Made by a program: the position numbers and the translations under genes. Source: a virus (taxonomy: Duplodnaviria > Heunggongvirae > Uroviricota > Caudoviricetes). From it: a DNA stretch of 30,806 nt. The stretch lies in IMG/VR virus record IMGVR_UViG_3300030438_000300; one strand, 5' to 3'. Below, in pieces: positions 6,325 to 12,211 of this stretch. The notes under the pieces were generated by a model. That model saw only the letters and a program-made list of their open reading frames with translations, did not search any database and was not told the origin of the DNA. Position 1 is the stretch's first letter, and each line of letters opens with the position of its first letter.

Positions 6325-7224
6325 ATGACAAATACAGCAAAAATACTCAACTTCGGCAGAGGTAACTTTGCCGGACAGGAGCGTAATGTGGCAGATCTCG
6401 ATGATGGTTACGCCAGACTATCAAATATGCTGCTTGAGGCTTATTCGGGCGCAGATCTGACCAAGCGACAGTTTAAAGTGCTGCTTGCCATTCTGCGTAA
6501 AACCTATGGGTGGAATAAACCAATGGACAGAATCACCGATTCTCAACTTAGCGAGATTACAAAGTTACCTGTCAAACGGTGCAATGAAGCCAAGTTAGAA
6601 CTCGTCAGAATGAATATTATCAAGCAGCAAGGCGGCATGTTTGGACCAAATAAAAACATCTCAGAATGGTGCATCCCTCAAAACGAGGGAAAATCCCCTA
6701 AAACGAGGGATAAAACATCCCTCAAATTGGGGGATTGCTATCCCTCAAAACAGGGGGACACAAAAGACACTATTACAAAAGAAAAAAGAAAAGATTATTC
6801 GTCAGAGAATTCTGGCGAATCCTCTGACCAGCCAGAAAACGACCTTTCTGTGGTGAAACCGGATGCTGCAATTCAGAGCGGCAGCAAGTGGGGGACAGCA
6901 GAAGACCTGACCGCCGCAGAGTGGATGTTTGACATGGTGAAGACTATCGCACCATCAGCCAGAAAACCGAATTTTGCTGGGTGGGCTAACGATATCCGCC
7001 TGATGCGTGAACGTGACGGACGTAACCACCGCGACATGTGCGTGCTGTTCCGCTGGGCATGCCAGGACAACTTCTGGTCCGGTAACGTGCTGAGCCCGGC
7101 CAAACTCCGCGATAAGTGGACCCAACTCGAAATCAACCGTAACAAGCAACAGGCAGGCGTGACAGCCAGCAAACCAAAACTCGACCTGACAAACACAGAC
7201 TGGATTTACGGGGTGGATCTATGA
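6325..7224 (+). CDS. O: Replication initiator O (lambda-type)
   Basis: 299-aa product MTNTAKILNFGRGNFAGQERNVADLDDGYARLSNMLLEAY... is essentially lambda O as recalled and contains the ori iterons. Confidence 0.95.
   Translation: MTNTAKILNFGRGNFAGQERNVADLDDGYARLSNMLLEAYSGADLTKRQFKVLLAILRKTYGWNKPMDRITDSQLSEITKLPVKRCNEAKLELVRMNIIKQQGGMFGPNKNISEWCIPQNEGKSPKTRDKTSLKLGDCYPSKQGDTKDTITKEKRKDYSSENSGESSDQPENDLSVVKPDAAIQSGSKWGTAEDLTAAEWMFDMVKTIAPSARKPNFAGWANDIRLMRERDGRNHRDMCVLFRWACQDNFWSGNVLSPAKLRDKWTQLEINRNKQQAGVTASKPKLDLTNTDWIYGVDL
6673..6758 (+). repeat. ori: ori-lambda iterons (four ~19-bp O-binding repeats) followed by an A/T-rich unwinding region
   Basis: ATCCCTCAAAACGAGGGAA, ATCCCCTAAAACGAGGGAT, ATCCCTCAAATTGGGGGAT and ATCCCTCAAAACAGGGGGA, followed by ACAAAAGACACTATTACAAAAGAAAAAAGAAAAG (about 6760-6800). 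Confidence 0.9.
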
Positions 7225-7922
7225 AAAACATCGCCGCACAGATGGTTAACTTTGACCGTGAGCAGATGCGTCGGATCGCCAACAACATGCCGGAACAGTA
7301 CGATGAAAAGCCGCAGGTACAGCAGGTAGCGCAGATCATCAACGGTGTGTTCAGCCAGTTACTGGCAACTTTCCCGGCGAGCCTGGCTAACCGTGACCAG
7401 AACGAAGTGAACGAAATCCGTCGCCAGTGGGTTCTGGCTTTTCGGGAAAACGGGATCACCACGATGGAACAGGTTAACGCAGGAATGCGCGTAGCCCGTC
7501 GGCAGAATCGACCATTTCTGCCATCACCCGGGCAGTTTGTTGCATGGTGCCGGGAAGAAGCATCCGTTATCGCCGGACTGCCAAACGTCAGCGAGCTGGT
7601 TGATATGGTTTACGAGTATTGCCGGAAGCGAGGCCTGTATCCGGATGCGGAGTCTTATCCGTGGAAATCAAACGCGCACTACTGGCTGGTTACCAACCTG
7701 TATCAGAACATGCGGGCCAATGCGCTTACTGATGCGGAATTACGCCGTAAGGCCGCAGATGAGCTTGTCCATATGACTGCGAGAATTAACCGTGGTGAGG
7801 CGATCCCTGAACCAGTAAAACAACTTCCTGTCATGGGCGGTAGACCTCTAAATCGTGCACAGGCTCTGGCGAAGATCGCAGAAATCAAAGCTAAGTTCGG
7901 ACTAAAAGGAGCAAGTGTATGA
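7221..7922 (+). CDS. P: Replication protein P (DnaB helicase loader, lambda-type)
   Basis: 233-aa product MKNIAAQMVNFDREQMRRIANNMPEQYDEKPQVQQVAQIINGVF... matches lambda P as recalled. ATGA overlap with the O stop. Confidence 0.95.
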   Translation: MKNIAAQMVNFDREQMRRIANNMPEQYDEKPQVQQVAQIINGVFSQLLATFPASLANRDQNEVNEIRRQWVLAFRENGITTMEQVNAGMRVARRQNRPFLPSPGQFVAWCREEASVIAGLPNVSELVDMVYEYCRKRGLYPDAESYPWKSNAHYWLVTNLYQNMRANALTDAELRRKAADELVHMTARINRGEAIPEPVKQLPVMGGRPLNRAQALAKIAEIKAKFGLKGASV

Positions 7923-8209
7923 CGGGCAAAGAGGCAATTATTCATTACCTGGGGACGCATAATAGCTTCTGTGCGCCGGACGTTGCCGCGCTAACAGGCG
8001 CAACAGTAACCAGCATAAATCAGGCCGCGGCTAAAATGGCACGGGCAGGTCTTCTGGTTATCGAAGGTAAGGTCTGGCGAACGGTGTATTACCGGTTTGC
8101 TACTAGGGAAGAACGGGAAGGAAAGATGAGCACGAACCTGATTTTTAAGGAGTGTCGCCAGAGTGCCGCGATGAAACGGGTATTGGCGGTATATGGAGTT
8201 AAAAGATGA
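7919..8209 (+). CDS. ren: Ren (Rex exclusion escape protein, lambda-type)
   Basis: 96-aa product MTGKEAIIHYLGTHNSFCAPDVAALTGATVTSINQAAAKMARAGLLVIEGKVWRT matches lambda Ren as recalled. ATGA overlap with P. Confidence 0.9.
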   Translation: MTGKEAIIHYLGTHNSFCAPDVAALTGATVTSINQAAAKMARAGLLVIEGKVWRTVYYRFATREEREGKMSTNLIFKECRQSAAMKRVLAVYGVKR

Positions 8210-8234
8210 CCATCTACATTACTGAGCTAATAAC

Positions 8235-8266
8235 AGGCCTGCTGGTAATCGCAGGCCTTTTTATTT
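8235..8266 (+). terminator. tR2: tR2-like intrinsic terminator
   Basis: Hairpin AGGCCTGC-tggtaatc-GCAGGCCT followed by TTTTATTT, between ren and ninB, as at lambda tR2. Confidence 0.7.
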
Positions 8267-8282
8267 GGGGGAGAGGGAAGTC

Positions 8283-8723
8283 ATGAAAAAACTAACCTTT
8301 GAAATTCGATCTCCAGCACATCAGCAAAACGCTATTCACGCAGTACAGCAAATCCTTCCAGACCCAACCAAACCAATCGTAGTAACCATTCAGGAACGCA
8401 ACCGCAGCTTAGACCAAAACAGGAAGCTATGGGCCTGCTTAGGTGACGTCTCTCGTCAGGTTGAATGGCATGGTCGCTGGCTGGATGCAGAAAGCTGGAA
8501 GTGTGTGTTTACCGCAGCATTAAAGCAGCAGGATGTTGTTCCTAACCTTGCCGGGAATGGCTTTGTGGTAATAGGCCAGTCAACCAGCAGGATGCGTGTA
8601 GGCGAATTTGCGGAGCTATTAGAGCTTATACAGGCATTCGGTACAGAGCGTGGCGTTAAGTGGTCAGACGAAGCGAGACTGGCTCTGGAGTGGAAAGCGA
8701 GATGGGGAGATCGGGCTGCATGA
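8283..8723 (+). CDS. ninB: NinB (recombination mediator, Orf family)
   Basis: 146-aa product MKKLTFEIRSPAHQQNAIHAVQQILPDPTKPIVVTIQERNRSLDQNRKLWACLGDVSRQVEWHG... matches lambda NinB as recalled. GGAG-rich RBS. The ORF track has a 6-codon upstream extension. Confidence 0.9.
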   Translation: MKKLTFEIRSPAHQQNAIHAVQQILPDPTKPIVVTIQERNRSLDQNRKLWACLGDVSRQVEWHGRWLDAESWKCVFTAALKQQDVVPNLAGNGFVVIGQSTSRMRVGEFAELLELIQAFGTERGVKWSDEARLALEWKARWGDRAA

Positions 8724-9247
8724 CAATCAAATCAAATACGCCAGCACACGACAAGGACTGCTGGCAAACGCCGCTTTGGCTTTTTGATGCACTGGATATT
8801 GAGTTTGGATTCTGGCTGGATTCGGCAGCGAGCGACAAAAATGCTCTGTGTGCTCACTGGCTAACTGAGGCCGACGACGCGCTCAATTCTGAGTGGGTAA
8901 GCCACGGTGCAATCTGGAATAACCCACCGTACAGCAATATCAGGCCGTGGGTGGAAAAAGCCGCTGAGCAGTGCATACAACAGCGACAGACGGTAGTTAT
9001 GCTTGTGCCAGAGGATATGTCAGTCGGATGGTTCAGCAAGGCTCTGGAGAGTGTCGACGAAGTTCGCATTATCACTGATGGACGGATTAATTTTATCGAA
9101 CCATCGACAGGGTTGGAGAAGAAGGGAAACAGCAAAGGCTCCATGCTGCTGATTTGGCGACCGTTCATCAGTCCTCGACGGATGTTTACTACCGTATCCA
9201 AAGCGGCATTGATGGCGATCGGGCAGGGCGTCAGGAGGGCGGCATGA
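8720..9247 (+). CDS. Phage DNA N6-adenine methyltransferase (Dam-like, orphan)
   Basis: 175-aa product from [26 protein letters not shown]... with catalytic-type motif [12 protein letters not shown] overlap with the ninB stop. No cognate restriction gene is seen. Confidence 0.8.
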
Positions 9248-9420
9248 GGCGACAGCGACGAAGTTTCACCGACATCATCTGCGAAAACTGCAAATACCTT
9301 CCAACGAAACGCTCCAGAAATAAACGCAAGCCAATCCCAAAAGAATCTGACGTAAAAACCTTCAATTACACAGCTCACCTGTGGGATATCCGGTGGCTAA
9401 GATATCGTGCGAGGAAATGA
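9244..9420 (+). CDS. ninE: NinE
   Basis: 58-aa product [58 protein letters not shown] resembles lambda NinE as recalled. ATGA overlap with the methyltransferase stop. Confidence 0.8.
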
Positions 9421-9764
9421 CAATGGATTATTCACAGTTAAGTGATTTTGAAATTAACAGAATGGTAGGAGACATAATTTTTAAAGGCCTTTGGGCAAGT
9501 AAACCGGAAACATCAGGGAATAACACCAACAAATGGTATTACGGAAATGCTGATACAACTTTTGAGCCATTAAATCATTTGCCTGACTACTGCAATGATC
9601 CGAGCGCTTCATGGCCGATTATTGAGAAATACAGGATTTCTATCTTAGACCAGTTAACTGAATGGTGTGTGGATGCAAAAGGCGTAAGCCCAATATTTGA
9701 TACCAGACCTCTCCGCGCCGCCATGATTGTCTTTCTCCTGATGCAGGAGGCCAATAATGCTTAG
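9417..9764 (+). CDS. Hypothetical nin-region protein
   Basis: 115-aa ORF from [22 protein letters not shown]..., translationally coupled to ninE by an ATGA overlap. No family recognised. Confidence 0.6.
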
Positions 9765-9974
9765 CCCATCTCAATCCCTTCAATACCAGAAAGGAAGCAT
9801 AGAGCGGGCTTCAATGAGCACAGAGTGGATTCTATCTAGGTTTAGCGCATACAGAAGATTGCCGGTAAAGGGCATGCCAAGCAAGTCGATGCTGCATATG
9901 CAAAAGAATGCGCGCTGGAAGGTATGGCGAAAACACAGGTTATGTGGCTGAAAGAGGGGATTATTAAGGCGTGA
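9757..9974 (+). pseudogene. Mosaic-junction remnant: ninF-like 5' end joined to the 3' end of a ybcO-like (DUF1364) gene
   Basis: Frame-1 ORF starts [18 protein letters not shown], like the lambda NinF N-terminus as recalled, then diverges. Frame 0 from about 9846 to stop 9972-9974 reads ...[32 protein letters not shown], like the C-terminus of DLP12 YbcO as recalled, with no upstream start and a TAG at 9843-9845. Confidence 0.45.
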
Positions 9975-10333
9975 ATACCTACAGCATCACATTACCCTGG
10001 CCTCCGAGCAATAATCGCTATTACCGCCATAATCGCGGGCGCACGCACGTCAGCGCAGAGGGGCAGGCATACCGCGATAACGTCGCCAGAATCATTAAAA
10101 ACGCAATGCTGGATATCGGCCTGGCTATCCCTGTGAAAATCCGCATTGAGTGCCACATGCCGGATCGCCGTCGCCGTGACCTGGATAATCTGCAAAAAGT
10201 CGCTTTTGACGCACTCACTAAAGCAGGTTTCTGGCTGGATGATGCTCAGGTCGTTGATTACCGCGTTGTGAAGATGCCTGTTACCAAAGGTGGGAGGCTG
10301 GAACTGACCATCACCGAAATGGGGAATGAATGA
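9971..10333 (+). CDS. rusA: Holliday junction resolvase RusA
   Basis: 120-aa product (GTG start) [52 protein letters not shown]...[12 protein letters not shown] is essentially E. coli DLP12 RusA as recalled. Confidence 0.92.
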
Positions 10334-10470
10334 TGTTTGAGTTTAATATGGCAGAACTTCTTCGCCACCGCTGGATGCGCCTGCGCTTATATCGTTTCCC
10401 CAGTTCTGTTTTGACCGATTACCGAATACTGAAGAATTACGCCAAAACCCTGACAGGAGCAGGAGTATGA
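10333..10470 (+). CDS. ylcG: Small protein YlcG-like
   Basis: 45-aa [48 protein letters not shown], overlapping the rusA stop (TGATG). Resembles DLP12 YlcG as recalled. Below the ORF-track size cut-off. Confidence 0.6.
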   Translation: MFEFNMAELLRHRWMRLRLYRFPSSVLTDYRILKNYAKTLTGAGV

Positions 10471-10555
10471 AGTCAGAGATAACAATCAACTAATACTGTT
10501 TTGTTGATTTTTGCTTGTAATTGGCGTTCTGGTCTGATTTTTGTGGAGTAAGTTG

Positions 10556-10939
10556 ATGCGTGATATTCAGATGGTTCTTGAACGTTGGGGAGCGTGGGCG
10601 GCTAATAATCATGAAGATGTGACCTGGTCGTCCATTGCCGCCGGTTTTAAGGGATTAATTCCTTCAAAAGTAAAATCTCGCCCGCAATGTTGTGACGATG
10701 ACGCGATGATCATTTGCGGGTGCATGGCCCGTCTGAAAAAGAACAACAGCGATTTGCACGATTTATTAGTAGATTATTATGTAGTCGGTATGACATTCAT
10801 GTCACTGGCAGGTAAGCATTGCTGCTCTGATGGTTATATCGGGAAAAGGTTACAGAAGGCTGAGGGTATAATTGAAGGGATGTTAATGGCATTAGATATC
10901 CGGTTAGAGATGGATATCGTTGTTAATAACTCTAATTAA
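10556..10939 (+). CDS. quuD: Late-gene antiterminator Q (phage 82/DLP12 QuuD type)
   Basis: 127-aa product [33 protein letters not shown]...[18 protein letters not shown]... matches QuuD as recalled. GGAG RBS 8 nt upstream of ATG 10556. The ORF track begins at the upstream TTG 10541. Confidence 0.9.
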
Positions 10940-11128
10940 TATGCCAGTTGTTTACTAAAAGTTATTAAAAATGGGGCGTTGCAACGCCCCCAAAAATAAA
11001 GGGTAATATATAACAGAAGGTTTATATAGTTAGAAGCAAGGTTGTGCTCCTAAAGGAAGTGGCTTGAGGGAGCCACTTATATGTTGGGGAGGCAAAGCCT
11101 CCCGCAACATATCTTTTTCGTAATCAGA

Positions 11129-12211
11129 TTAGAACTGATACACCAGACCTACAGCGACGATGTCGTCGGTATCAATACCAGCTGTTTTGGTAAACTTACT
11201 ATCGTCAATTAAGTTGATTTTGTAATCAACAAAAGTGGACATGTTTTTATTAAAGTAGTAAGTAGCACCGACATCGACATACTTGACTAAGTCTCGGTCA
11301 CCATGAACACCAAGGTCTTTACCTTTTGACTGAAGGTAAGCAACAGATGGTCGCAGACCGAAGTCAAACTGATATTGTGCTACTGCTTCAAAGTTTTGTG
11401 CTTTGTTTGCAATATGGTTATTACCAAAAACGGTCATATTCTGAGTTTCAGAATATGTGGTAGCCAGATAGATATTGTTCGCATCATATTTCAGGCCTGC
11501 AGCCCATACTTCCGCATTTTTGCCGGAGGCATTGAATTTGCTCTTACCATAGGCGACCTGACCGTCAGTGCGATCTGATTTAGCATAGGTTGCACCCACG
11601 CCGAATCCTTCATACTCATAAGTAGTGGAGAAACCGAAACCATCACCATTGGCTTCAGTTACGTCAGTGCGGTCATTTTTACCCTGATACTGAGCAGCAA
11701 AGTTCAGGCCATCGACCAGACCAAAGAAGTCGTTGTTACGATAGGTTGCAACACCAGTGGTGCGACCAGTCATGAACACATCTGTTTGGGTCCAGGTATC
11801 GCCACCGAATTCTGGCAGAACGTCAGTCCACGCACCGATGTCGTATGCTACACCGTAGTTACGGCCGTAATCGATTGAGCCGTAGTCACCGAATTTCAGG
11901 CCTGCAAATGCAAGACGGGTTTTGTCTTTGGAGGAACCTTGAGATTCAGCGCGGTTGCCTTTGAATTCATATTCCCACTGACCGAAACCAGTCAGTTGAT
12001 CGTTGATTTGGGTTTCACCTTTGAAGCCAAGACGGGCATAAGTAGTATCACCATCATCTGCATCATTAGAGGAGAAGTAGTGCTTAGCATTAACTTTCCC
12101 GTACAGATCCAGCTTGTTACTGTCTTTATTATAAATTTCAGCTGCCTGAGCAGACATCGCCATCAGTACTGATGCAGCTACAGCAGAAATTGCCACTGTT
12201 AATTTTTTCAT
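11129..12211 (-). CDS. nmpC: Outer membrane general porin (OmpC/NmpC family), apparently intact
   Basis: 360-aa product with signal peptide [30 protein letters not shown]..., beta-barrel porin-like sequence and C-terminal ...VGLVYQF. Lies between Q and the lysis genes on the opposite strand, as nmpC does in DLP12. Confidence 0.9.

What the first reader, a model, noticed from the sequence alone, without database searches (positions are those of the whole stretch)
9757..9974. Gene remnants mark the junction between lambda-like nin genes and the DLP12-like rusA-Q block
The 64-aa ORF begins like lambda NinF ([12 protein letters not shown]...) and then diverges. A different frame over the last ~100 nt encodes a peptide resembling the C-terminus of DLP12 YbcO (...[25 protein letters not shown]-stop), with no start codon and a stop just upstream. 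Immediately afterwards rusA starts on GTG. This looks like a recombination scar between two phage modules rather than a functional gene.
Basis: partly seen in the sequence, partly recalled or inferred. Interest (0 to 1): 0.4.

Follow-up and report, generated by a model that had tools for sequence, protein, structure and literature searches.

The report
Recombination scar between phage gene modules
This 218-base stretch is a leftover seam where two blocks of lambda-like phage genes were joined, made of the dead front end of one small gene (ninF) and the dead back end of another (ybcO); it is common in E. coli prophages, already half-annotated in public records, and scientifically ordinary.

Summary
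Window 9757-9974 is a three-part scar. (1) 9757-9811 is the 5' end of ninF, of the P22/ST64T type rather than the lambda type (16 of 18 residues). (2) 9812-9884 is an orphan segment that matches neither parent gene. (3) 9885-9974 is the last 29 codons plus stop of DLP12-type ybcO, in another frame and with no start codon. The ybcO stop overlaps the GTG start of rusA. The 64-aa ORF (9757-9951) is a chimera reading through all three parts. It lacks the whole Pfam NinF zinc-ribbon domain, has only near-identical E. coli relatives of variable length, and its polymorphism looks neutral (15 nonsynonymous, 5 synonymous). DNA to the left is lambda/Stx/P22-like nin; DNA to the right is 97.9% identical to K-12 DLP12. 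The same scar is in about 585 of 5426 complete E. coli genomes and in at least 27 deposited lambdoid phage genomes. RefSeq already marks the ybcO piece as a pseudogene, and some records mislabel the ORF as "protein ninF". The likely residual role is in cis: the scar keeps the ninF start and the rusA ribosome-binding site. One unexplained side observation: position 9867|9868 is a recurrent deletion endpoint with at least 7 different partners.

The parts
9423..9764 (+). ninX (NinX/DUF2591 family), the last intact nin gene to the left of the scar
   Evidence: Pfam PF10765, E=1e-16. The PGAP CDS in identical loci L001/L002 maps to these coordinates. 95.4% identical to ST64T ninE-ninX.
9757..9811 (+). 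ninF 5' remnant: start codon plus 18 codons, P22/ST64T-type N-terminus
   Evidence: 16/18 aa to ST64T NinF. DNA homology to ST64T ends at 9811-9814. PHROG 672 matches residues 1-18 only. The Pfam NinF domain covers residues 20-44 of real NinF and is absent here.
9812..9884 (+). Orphan segment between the two remnants, of unknown origin. It was already attached to a ninF remnant before the join to ybcO.
   Evidence: No significant similarity to the rest of ninF or to the missing ybcO 5' part (p>0.1). Only 11/21 register-locked matches just after the break (p~0.012, post hoc). Found only in this scar and, at 86%, in Stx1 phages AU6Stx1/SH2026Stx1 and about 250 E. coli genomes, after a lambda-type ninF remnant.
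9885..9974 (+). ybcO (DUF1364, His-Me finger nuclease family) 3' remnant: last 29 codons plus the TGA stop, in frame 3, with no start codon
   Evidence: 25/29 aa to K-12 YbcO residues 68-96 and to PDB 3g27 residues 67-96. 97.9% DNA identity to K-12 DLP12 from 9885 onward. PGAP annotates exactly this stretch as 'DUF1364 domain-containing protein, incomplete, missing N-terminus' in SCU-118, Nissle 1917 and AR_0085.
9757..9951 (+). Chimeric 64-aa ORF: ninF codons 1-18, then the orphan segment, then ybcO read out of frame. Probably translated but not a conserved protein.
   Evidence: Annotated 'protein ninF' in RefSeq phage ev207. Polymorphism among 83 copies is 15 nonsynonymous to 5 synonymous. 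Relatives vary from 54 to 88 aa through frameshifts, deletions and IS insertions.
9955..9960 (+). rusA ribosome-binding site (AGGGGA), retained inside the ybcO remnant
   Evidence: Phage 82 record X92588 annotates AGGGGG at the equivalent position as the RBS of rus.
9971..10333 (+). rusA (Holliday-junction resolvase). Its GTG start overlaps the ybcO-frame stop (GTGA).
   Evidence: Pfam PF05866, E=2e-22. PGAP rusA in identical loci.
9866..9868 (.). Recurrent deletion endpoint inside the orphan segment (…GATTGCCGGTA|AAGGGCATGCC…)
   Evidence: The right block is fused at exactly this point to lambda P codon 33, lambda P codon 47, 434-type cro, two positions in ead/Ea22, window 2023 and one further partner. 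The left block is fused to window 10422 in L141.

Best explanation
Window 9757-9974 is a non-functional seam left by two successive illegitimate recombination events in the nin region of a lambdoid phage.

First event: a ninF gene was broken after codon 18 (about 9811) and joined to unrelated DNA, now 9812-9884. This junction is shared with Stx1-type prophages.

Second event: that DNA was joined at about 9884|9885 to the last 90 nt of a DLP12/phage-82-type ybcO gene. A CGATG motif at 9887-9891, shared with the Stx-type relative, sits next to the junction. This join brought in the ybcO'-rusA-ylcG-quuD-porin-lysis block.

Consequences: neither NinF nor YbcO can be made. The NinF zinc ribbon and the YbcO His-Me finger core are both missing. 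The accidental 64-aa ORF that reads through the seam is very likely translated, because it keeps the native ninF start coupled to the ninX stop. It is not under detectable protein-level selection.

What the seam keeps in cis (inferred, not shown): the ninF initiation site, an open frame ending at 9951, and the rusA ribosome-binding site at 9955-9960. Ribosomes and transcription would therefore still run from the nin genes into rusA and Q.

The hybrid spread by ordinary homologous exchange among lambdoid phages and prophages. It is found at both the argU (DLP12) and the attB-lambda (ybhC) integration sites.
For: Anatomy and homology limits of the three parts.

Loss of the defining domains: Pfam NinF covers residues 20-44 of real NinF and the ORF gives no hit. 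The YbcO model is matched only at profile positions 62-91, at 14.2 bits against a cutoff of 29.9, whereas intact YbcO scores 138.7 bits.

Independent annotation: PGAP flags the ybcO piece as a pseudogene.

No conserved family for the ORF.

Neutral-looking polymorphism.

Tolerated disruptions of the ORF (IS21-family and IS5 insertions, frameshifts, further deletions).

No RNA family and no unusual RNA structure.

Older ninF'|orphan junction shared with Stx1 phages, where most copies carry a stop at ninF codon 4.

Same scar in deposited lambdoid phage genomes (ev207, ev017, mEp332, PhiR11_1, Lambda_2E9 and others).

rusA RBS retained.

Prevalence: about 585-589 of 5426 complete E. coli genomes carry the scar, and 2940 carry intact ninE-ybcO-rusA.

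Two integration sites.
Against: The 64-aa ORF is open at full length in 82 of 83 IMG/VR copies. This is weak counter-evidence: the copies are at least 96% identical, and about 20 substitutions would be expected to leave the frame open roughly one time in three.

The origin of 9812-9884 was not identified, so the 'two events' history is inferred from shared junctions rather than from known parents.

The exact crossover points cannot be fixed. The left one lies somewhere between 9811 and about 9832, and the right one between 9881 and 9891.

Translation of the ORF and any coupling to rusA are untested.
Confidence: 0.9

Rival explanations
1. The scar is kept because of what it does in cis. It would be a translated linker that carries ribosomes from ninX, through the ninF start, to a stop 19 nt before the rusA GTG. 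It also supplies the rusA Shine-Dalgarno sequence, replacing the lost ybcO-rusA GTGA stop/start coupling. This is compatible with the scar origin. It is a claim about why this particular junction survives.
For: The ninF ATG keeps its native overlap with the ninX stop. The ORF stop at 9949-9951 lies just upstream of AGGGGA at 9955-9960, which aligns with the RBS annotated for rus in phage 82. The ORF is open in 82 of 83 copies. Every deletion variant examined that still has rusA keeps sequence from 9868 onward.
Against: No expression data exist. IS insertions and frameshifts within the ORF occur in natural isolates. Some fusion variants replace the ORF's 5' part with unrelated ORFs. rusA has its own RBS and may not need coupling. 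The nin region is dispensable for lambda growth (established knowledge: the nin5 deletion).
Confidence: 0.3
2. The 64-aa ORF encodes a functional small protein, a divergent NinF variant, as some RefSeq phage records imply by naming it 'protein ninF'.
For: It has the N-terminal 18 residues of NinF, a native-looking start, and an open frame in most copies.
Against: It lacks the whole NinF zinc-ribbon domain. Its C-terminal 22 residues are ybcO read out of frame. All relatives are near-identical E. coli copies with variable ends. The nonsynonymous to synonymous count is 15:5. The sister ORF in Stx-type prophages usually has a stop at codon 4.
Confidence: 0.04
3. The orphan segment 9812-9884 is not foreign DNA. 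It would be the remainder of ninF, decayed in place beyond recognition, so that only one recombination event (the join to ybcO) occurred.
For: 11 of 21 register-locked matches to ninF immediately after 9811 in both the window and the Stx-type copy (p~0.012, post hoc).
Against: There is no significant local alignment to the remaining 120 nt of ninF (p=0.11-0.94). The flanking ninF codons 1-18 are 95% identical to ST64T at DNA level, so a sudden fall to random similarity points to a breakpoint rather than gradual decay.
Confidence: 0.08

Closest known systems
NinF of phage P22/ST64T and lambda (Pfam PF05810, about 57-aa zinc-ribbon protein of the nin region)
   Same: Same start context (overlap with the ninX stop). 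Same first 18 residues (16/18 to ST64T). Same position in the ninE-ninX-ninF order.
   Different: Everything after residue 18 is unrelated. The CxxC...CxxCC zinc ribbon that defines the family is missing, so this is a gene fragment and not a member.
YbcO of the DLP12 cryptic prophage / orf96 of phage 82 (Pfam PF07102 DUF1364, His-Me finger fold, PDB 3g27)
   Same: The last 29 codons and the stop codon overlapping the rusA GTG are retained at 86% aa and about 98% nt identity. The position immediately upstream of rusA is the same.
   Different: The first 67 codons, including the start codon, the Cys clusters and the His-Me finger core, are absent. The remnant is not in frame with any start codon. 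It is annotated as a pseudogene in RefSeq.
Mosaic module junctions of lambdoid phages, including exchange with defective prophages such as DLP12 (nin region synteny is described in PMC4118853)
   Same: There is an abrupt switch of closest relative at a point between genes of the ninR operon. The junction is shared by many phages and prophages and moved by homologous recombination in the flanks.
   Different: This junction lies inside two genes rather than at a gene boundary, so it leaves visible gene debris. Other boundaries in the same window (ninB|methylase|ninE) sit cleanly on ATGA stop/start overlaps.
The ninF remnant of Stx1-converting phages AU6Stx1 and SH2026Stx1 and of O26/O111 prophages
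   Same: Same ninF'|orphan junction and the same orphan segment (86% identity, window 9791-9891).
   Different: The N-terminal ninF piece is lambda-type, usually with a stop at codon 4. The orphan segment continues into an AT-rich region with a leftward gene instead of into ybcO'-rusA.

Membership tests
NinF (Pfam PF05810) | Zinc-ribbon core CxxC...CxxCC. The 25-position Pfam model covers residues 20-44 of ST64T NinF and 18-42 of lambda NinF. | tested here: not met
   The 64-aa ORF gives no Pfam hit at E<=1. Positive controls score E=6e-14 and 1.6e-12. The ORF has a single Cys (residue 63) and none in the region corresponding to the zinc ribbon.
NinF (Pfam PF05810) | Homologous N-terminus and a genomic position after ninE/ninX with an overlapping start | tested here: met
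   16/18 identity to ST64T NinF. The ATG overlaps the ninX stop as in ST64T.
YbcO / DUF1364 (Pfam PF07102, His-Me finger) | Full domain of about 92 positions including the His-Me finger active site | tested here: not met
   Only profile positions 62-91 are matched, at 14.2 bits against a cutoff of 29.9. Intact YbcO scores 138.7 bits over positions 2-92. The family's fold assignment is from PMC5714182.
YbcO / DUF1364 (Pfam PF07102, His-Me finger) | An open reading frame with a start codon | tested here: not met
   The frame is closed by TAG at 9837-9839 and at 9843-9845, and no start codon opens the remnant. PGAP annotation: 'incomplete; missing N-terminus'.
YbcO / DUF1364 (Pfam PF07102, His-Me finger) | Sequence homology of the retained part, and a stop overlapping the rusA start | tested here: met
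   25/29 identity, E=4e-18. PDB 3g27 residues 67-96, E=3e-12. GTGA overlap at 9971-9974.
Lambdoid mosaic junction (recombination scar) | The flanks have different closest relatives, and identity switches abruptly | tested here: met
   Left flank: lambda, Stx-phage and ST64T at 95-99%. Right flank: K-12 DLP12 at 97.9% starting at 9885.
Lambdoid mosaic junction (recombination scar) | Both parental (intact) arrangements exist elsewhere | tested here: met
   Intact ninX-ninF is in ST64T and L. Intact ninE-ybcO-rusA is in K-12, phage 82, PhiR34_1 and 2940 E. coli genomes.
Functional small protein or small RNA | Purifying selection, a conserved family, or a conserved RNA structure | tested here: not met
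   15 nonsynonymous to 5 synonymous changes. Only near-identical relatives. No Rfam match in the window. RNA fold z=0.13.

The most novel reading that the evidence does not exclude
Position 9867|9868 (…TTGCCGGTA|AAGGGCATGCC…, 3 nt from the 8-bp palindrome GGCATGCC) may be a preferred DNA break or strand-switch site rather than a neutral spot in junk DNA.

The block to its right is fused at exactly this nucleotide to at least seven unrelated left partners. These are lambda P codons 33 and 47, 434-type cro, two points in ead/Ea22, window 2023 and one other. The left block is fused at the same point to window 10422.

Nearly all of these joints, and unrelated deletion joints in the same decayed prophages, sit on a shared TA, often within GGTA or GTTA.

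This could reflect a site-specific nick or cut. One candidate is a free-standing His-Me/HNH nuclease of a co-resident phage acting at the locus that has lost ybcO. Another is repeated loss of an insertion sequence with microhomology-mediated joining, as described for the IS-excision enhancer. Either process would drive prophage decay from a fixed point.
Probability: 0.2. Interest if true: 0.5.

Novelty: already known. Interest (0 to 1): 0.15.

Why it matters
It matters mainly for annotation. The ORF at 9757-9951 should not be called NinF, as some RefSeq phage records do. The ybcO piece is correctly treated as a pseudogene.

The scar is a convenient, precisely mapped marker of one hybrid lineage (P22/lambda-type nin joined to DLP12-type rusA-Q). 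That lineage has spread to about 11% of complete E. coli genomes, to two integration sites and to deposited lambdoid phage genomes. This illustrates exchange between phages and cryptic prophages.

It also shows that neither NinF nor YbcO is needed in the phage genomes that carry it. This fits the known dispensability of the nin region.

The only element that could lead somewhere new is the recurrent deletion endpoint at 9867|9868.

Tried and rejected
1. Is the orphan segment (9812-9884) a diverged remainder of ninF or of the missing ybcO 5' part? Local alignments were no better than shuffles. There is only a weak register-locked signal over the first 21 nt.

2. Does 9866-9884 belong to another ybcO allele? 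Klebsiella and Enterobacter phage YbcO homologues read ...DRRTRLVDAEYAKE, so the apparent tblastn extension was spurious.

3. Is it a known RNA or a structured RNA? No Rfam family was found in the whole window, and the fold z-score is 0.13. There is no terminator-like site and no promoter excess.

4. Is the right block a transposon bounded by an inverted repeat of TAAAGGGCATGCC? No second copy exists on either strand of the window, allowing up to 3 mismatches.

5. Is an IS at the hot spot the progenitor of the recurrent deletions? An IS21-family element sits at 9869|9870 in one draft genome. That junction is in none of the 5426 complete genomes, so the idea is unsupported.

6. By-eye comparisons of the hot spot with dif/Xer, integron core sites, Chi, IS1 ends and the lambda att core gave no convincing match. 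No tool test was run for these.

7. A type I-E CRISPR protospacer (AAG follows the break) was considered but not tested.

8. PHROG 37221 (64-position profile, E=0.01, residues 14-56) could not be inspected. It is probably built from annotated copies of this same ORF.

Full report
**What is there.**

Window 9757-9974 lies between ninX (9423-9764) and rusA (9971-10333) in the rightward early operon of a lambdoid prophage. The gene order is O, P, ren, ninB, a Dam-like methylase, ninE, ninX, the scar, rusA, ylcG, quuD, and then a leftward porin gene.

A 64-aa ORF runs from ATG 9757 to TGA 9949-9951. Its ATG overlaps the ninX stop by 8 nt, the same arrangement as ninX/ninF in phage ST64T.

A second frame is open from 9846 to the TGA at 9972-9974. 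That TGA overlaps the rusA GTG at 9971.

**Checking the two claimed resemblances.**

- NinF side. Residues 1-18 of the ORF match ST64T (P22-like) NinF 16/18, and the alignment stops there. At DNA level, window 9650-9814 is 95.8% identical to ninX plus the ninF 5' end of ST64T, L and other P22-like phages.
- Correction. The [13 protein letters not shown]-terminus is in fact the P22/ST64T type. Lambda NinF begins (V/M)IDQNRSYEQ and shares only the following ES(V/I)ERA.
- YbcO side. The other-frame peptide [29 protein letters not shown] matches residues 68-96 of K-12 YbcO 25/29 (E=4e-18). It also matches residues 67-96 of the solved YbcO structure 3g27 (E=3e-12).
- DNA 9885-10050 is 97.6% identical to the ybcO 3' end plus rusA of phage PhiR34_1. 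From 9885 to 11170 the window is 97.9% identical to K-12 DLP12.
- The frame is closed upstream by TAG codons at 9837-9839 and 9843-9845.

**A third component.**

Between the two remnants lie about 70 nt (9812-9884) that match neither parent gene. Local alignments to the remainder of ninF and to the missing 201-nt 5' part of ybcO are no better than shuffled controls. Only the first 21 nt after the break show 11/21 register-locked matches to ninF (p about 0.012, post hoc).

This orphan segment was found in only two contexts.

- The same scar, in about 589 complete E. coli genomes and 27 phage records.
- At 86-88% identity, Stx1-converting phages AU6Stx1 and SH2026Stx1 and about 250 E. coli genomes, including O26:H11 and O111:H8 strains.

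In the Stx-type context it follows ninE directly and is preceded by a lambda-type ninF remnant, GTG ATT GAC TAA AAT CGA AGT TAC GAA CAA GAA AGC GTC GAG CGG GCT T. That remnant has a stop at codon 4 in most copies. The segment is followed there by unrelated AT-rich DNA and a leftward gene.

The ninF'|orphan junction is therefore shared by two lineages with different ninF N-termini. It predates the join to ybcO.

The similarity to the Stx-type copy runs to 9891, and the DLP12-type homology starts at 9885. The second junction therefore lies at about 9881-9891, next to a shared CGATG.

**Mosaic map.**

| Window range | Closest relative | Identity |
|---|---|---|
| 8139-8726 | lambda ren-ninB | 99.3% |
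| 8713-9417 | Stx-phage methylase-ninE | 97.7% |
| 9250-9814 | ST64T ninE-ninX-ninF' | 95.4% |
| 9791-9891 | Stx-type ninF'-orphan | 86% |
| 9885-11170 | K-12 DLP12 'ybcO-rusA-ylcG-quuD | 97.9% |

DLP12 similarity then continues at about 90% through the porin and lysis genes. The title of the finding, a junction between lambda-like nin genes and the DLP12-like rusA-Q block, is correct.

**Is anything functional encoded?**

- The Pfam NinF model covers residues 20-44 of real NinF, the zinc ribbon. ST64T and lambda NinF hit it at E=6e-14 and 1.6e-12. The 64-aa ORF gives no hit. PHROG 672 matches its residues 1-18 only.
- The YbcO model is matched only at positions 62-91, at 14.2 bits against a cutoff of 29.9. 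Intact YbcO scores 138.7 bits.
- YbcO/DUF1364 is classified as a His-Me finger nuclease family (PMC5714182). The remnant keeps only the C-terminal tail.
- A search of 5.8 billion proteins found only 15 clusters, all from E. coli and 74-100% identical over the aligned part. Their lengths range from 54 to 88 aa because of frameshifts, further deletions and IS insertions.
- Among 83 IMG/VR copies the ORF is open in 82. The copies are at least 96% identical, however, and the polymorphisms split 15 nonsynonymous to 5 synonymous, as expected without selection.
- No Rfam family hits anywhere in the window. The region folds no better than shuffles (z=0.13). No terminator-like site is present.
- RefSeq/PGAP already annotates the equivalent of 9885-9974 as [quoted passage not shown] in strains SCU-118, Nissle 1917 and AR_0085.
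- RefSeq phage ev207 and several protein records call the 64-aa ORF "protein ninF". On the present evidence that is a mis-annotation by N-terminal similarity.

**Most likely mechanism and residual role.**

The scar is debris from two illegitimate joins. It was later spread by homologous recombination in the flanks.

It occurs in prophages at the argU/DLP12 site (AR_0085) and at the lambda attachment site next to ybhC (AST198). It also occurs in deposited lambdoid phage genomes such as ev207, ev017, mEp332, PhiR11_1 and Lambda_2E9. NinF and YbcO therefore appear dispensable in those phage genomes. The intact ninE-ybcO-rusA arrangement is in 2940 of 5426 complete genomes, and the scar is in about 585-589.

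The following is inferred, not shown. The scar keeps the native ninF start. The ORF's stop (9949-9951) sits just before AGGGGA at 9955-9960. That hexamer aligns with the ribosome-binding site annotated for rus in the phage 82 record. Translation and transcription can thus still flow from the nin genes into rusA, even though the original ybcO-rusA GTGA stop/start coupling has lost its upstream gene. I give this cis role about 0.3 as an explanation for why this joint persists. The scar origin itself I give 0.9.

**Side observation, unexplained.**

The protein search turned up fusions in which unrelated N-termini are joined to ...KGMPSKSM... of the ORF. The DNA shows the following.

- The block to the right of 9867|9868 (...GATTGCCGGTA|AAGGGCATGCC...) is joined at exactly that nucleotide to at least seven different left partners.
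  - lambda P codon 33 (window 7319)
  - lambda P codon 47 (window 7361)
  - 434-type cro
  - two positions in an ead/Ea22 gene
  - window 2023
  - one further sequence
- The left block is joined at the same point to window 10422 in one contig, deleting rusA and ylcG.
- These are simple co-linear deletions.
- Where the native partner sequence is known it also has TA at the joint, often within GGTA or GTTA and with imperfect 6-9 nt similarity to TTGCCGGTA.
- Other deletion joints in the same decayed prophages also sit on TA. Some other joints use different microhomologies, for example AAGCC at 7307/9686.
- The variants are rare. Only 4 of 589 complete genomes with the region lack a full-length match across the site.
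- An IS21-family element is inserted 2 nt away (9869|9870) in one draft genome. That insertion is absent from all complete genomes.
- There is no inverted repeat of the block end in the window.
- Loss of an insertion sequence with microhomology-mediated joining, as described for the IS-excision enhancer, would give a fixed endpoint (PMC9943667; bioRxiv 10.1101/2023.06.07.543989). I found no supporting IS.
- A site-specific break is an alternative I could not test.

**Verdict.**

The finding is real and correctly interpreted. It describes an ordinary, widespread and already partly annotated mosaic joint in lambdoid prophages. Its value is for annotation hygiene and as a lineage marker. The recurrent breakpoint is the only lead that might repay more work.

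Noticed in passing
window 9866-9868 (also L129-L139, L141, L144): A recurrent deletion endpoint at ...CCGGTA|AAGGGCATGCC.... At least 7 unrelated left partners and 1 alternative right partner are joined at exactly this nucleotide, nearly always on a shared TA. The mechanism is unknown.
   Followed up: partly
window 9836-9839, 9869|9870 and about 9899 (IMG/VR contig; L140; protein P0008): Three independent IS insertions occur inside the 218-nt scar in other genomes. One is IS5 at the CTAG. Two are IS21-family (IS100-like) elements, at 9869|9870 and near 9899. The scar tolerates disruption.
   Followed up: partly
L005 1608-1802 (RefSeq phage ev207, NC_049949) and protein clusters P0002-P0010: Public records name the chimeric 64-aa ORF 'protein ninF' although it lacks the entire NinF domain. 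This looks like an annotation error propagated by N-terminal similarity.
   Followed up: yes
L006 1960-2120 (Stx1 phage AU6Stx1) and about 250 E. coli genomes: A sister scar. A lambda-type ninF remnant directly follows ninE, usually with TAA at codon 4. It is followed by the same orphan segment and then by AT-rich DNA and a large leftward gene of unknown function.
   Followed up: partly
window 8711-9248: Some related contigs lack the 524-bp methylase gene. Their boundaries fall on the ...GCATGA stop/start overlaps of ninB|methylase and methylase|ninE. This is a clean gene-boundary module exchange, in contrast to the in-gene scar.
   Followed up: no
window 6672-6757: Four 19-20 nt direct repeats (ATCCCTCAAAACGAGGGA-like) at 20-24 nt spacing lie inside the 299-aa ORF at 6325-7224, which by position and by identity to loci with a Phage_rep_O gene is the O replication gene. 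They look like lambda-type ori iterons.
   Followed up: no
window 11129-12211 (- strand): The porin gene downstream of quuD is intact here (360 aa). Its K-12 DLP12 counterpart, nmpC, is split by IS5, and the AR_0085 copy is split by an IS4-like element.
   Followed up: no
IMG/VR contig (equivalent of window about 9774-9782): One copy of the scar carries a tandem triplication of the 9-nt unit TCAATCCCT within the ninF remnant.
   Followed up: no
L141 and L134-L136: The heavily decayed prophage remnants that carry the scar have several further internal deletions (ral|P, cro|P, scar|ylcG-Q spacer). They are followed by blc-like lipocalin and DUF1722 genes rather than the porin. This shows stepwise erosion of the hybrid prophage.
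   Followed up: partly
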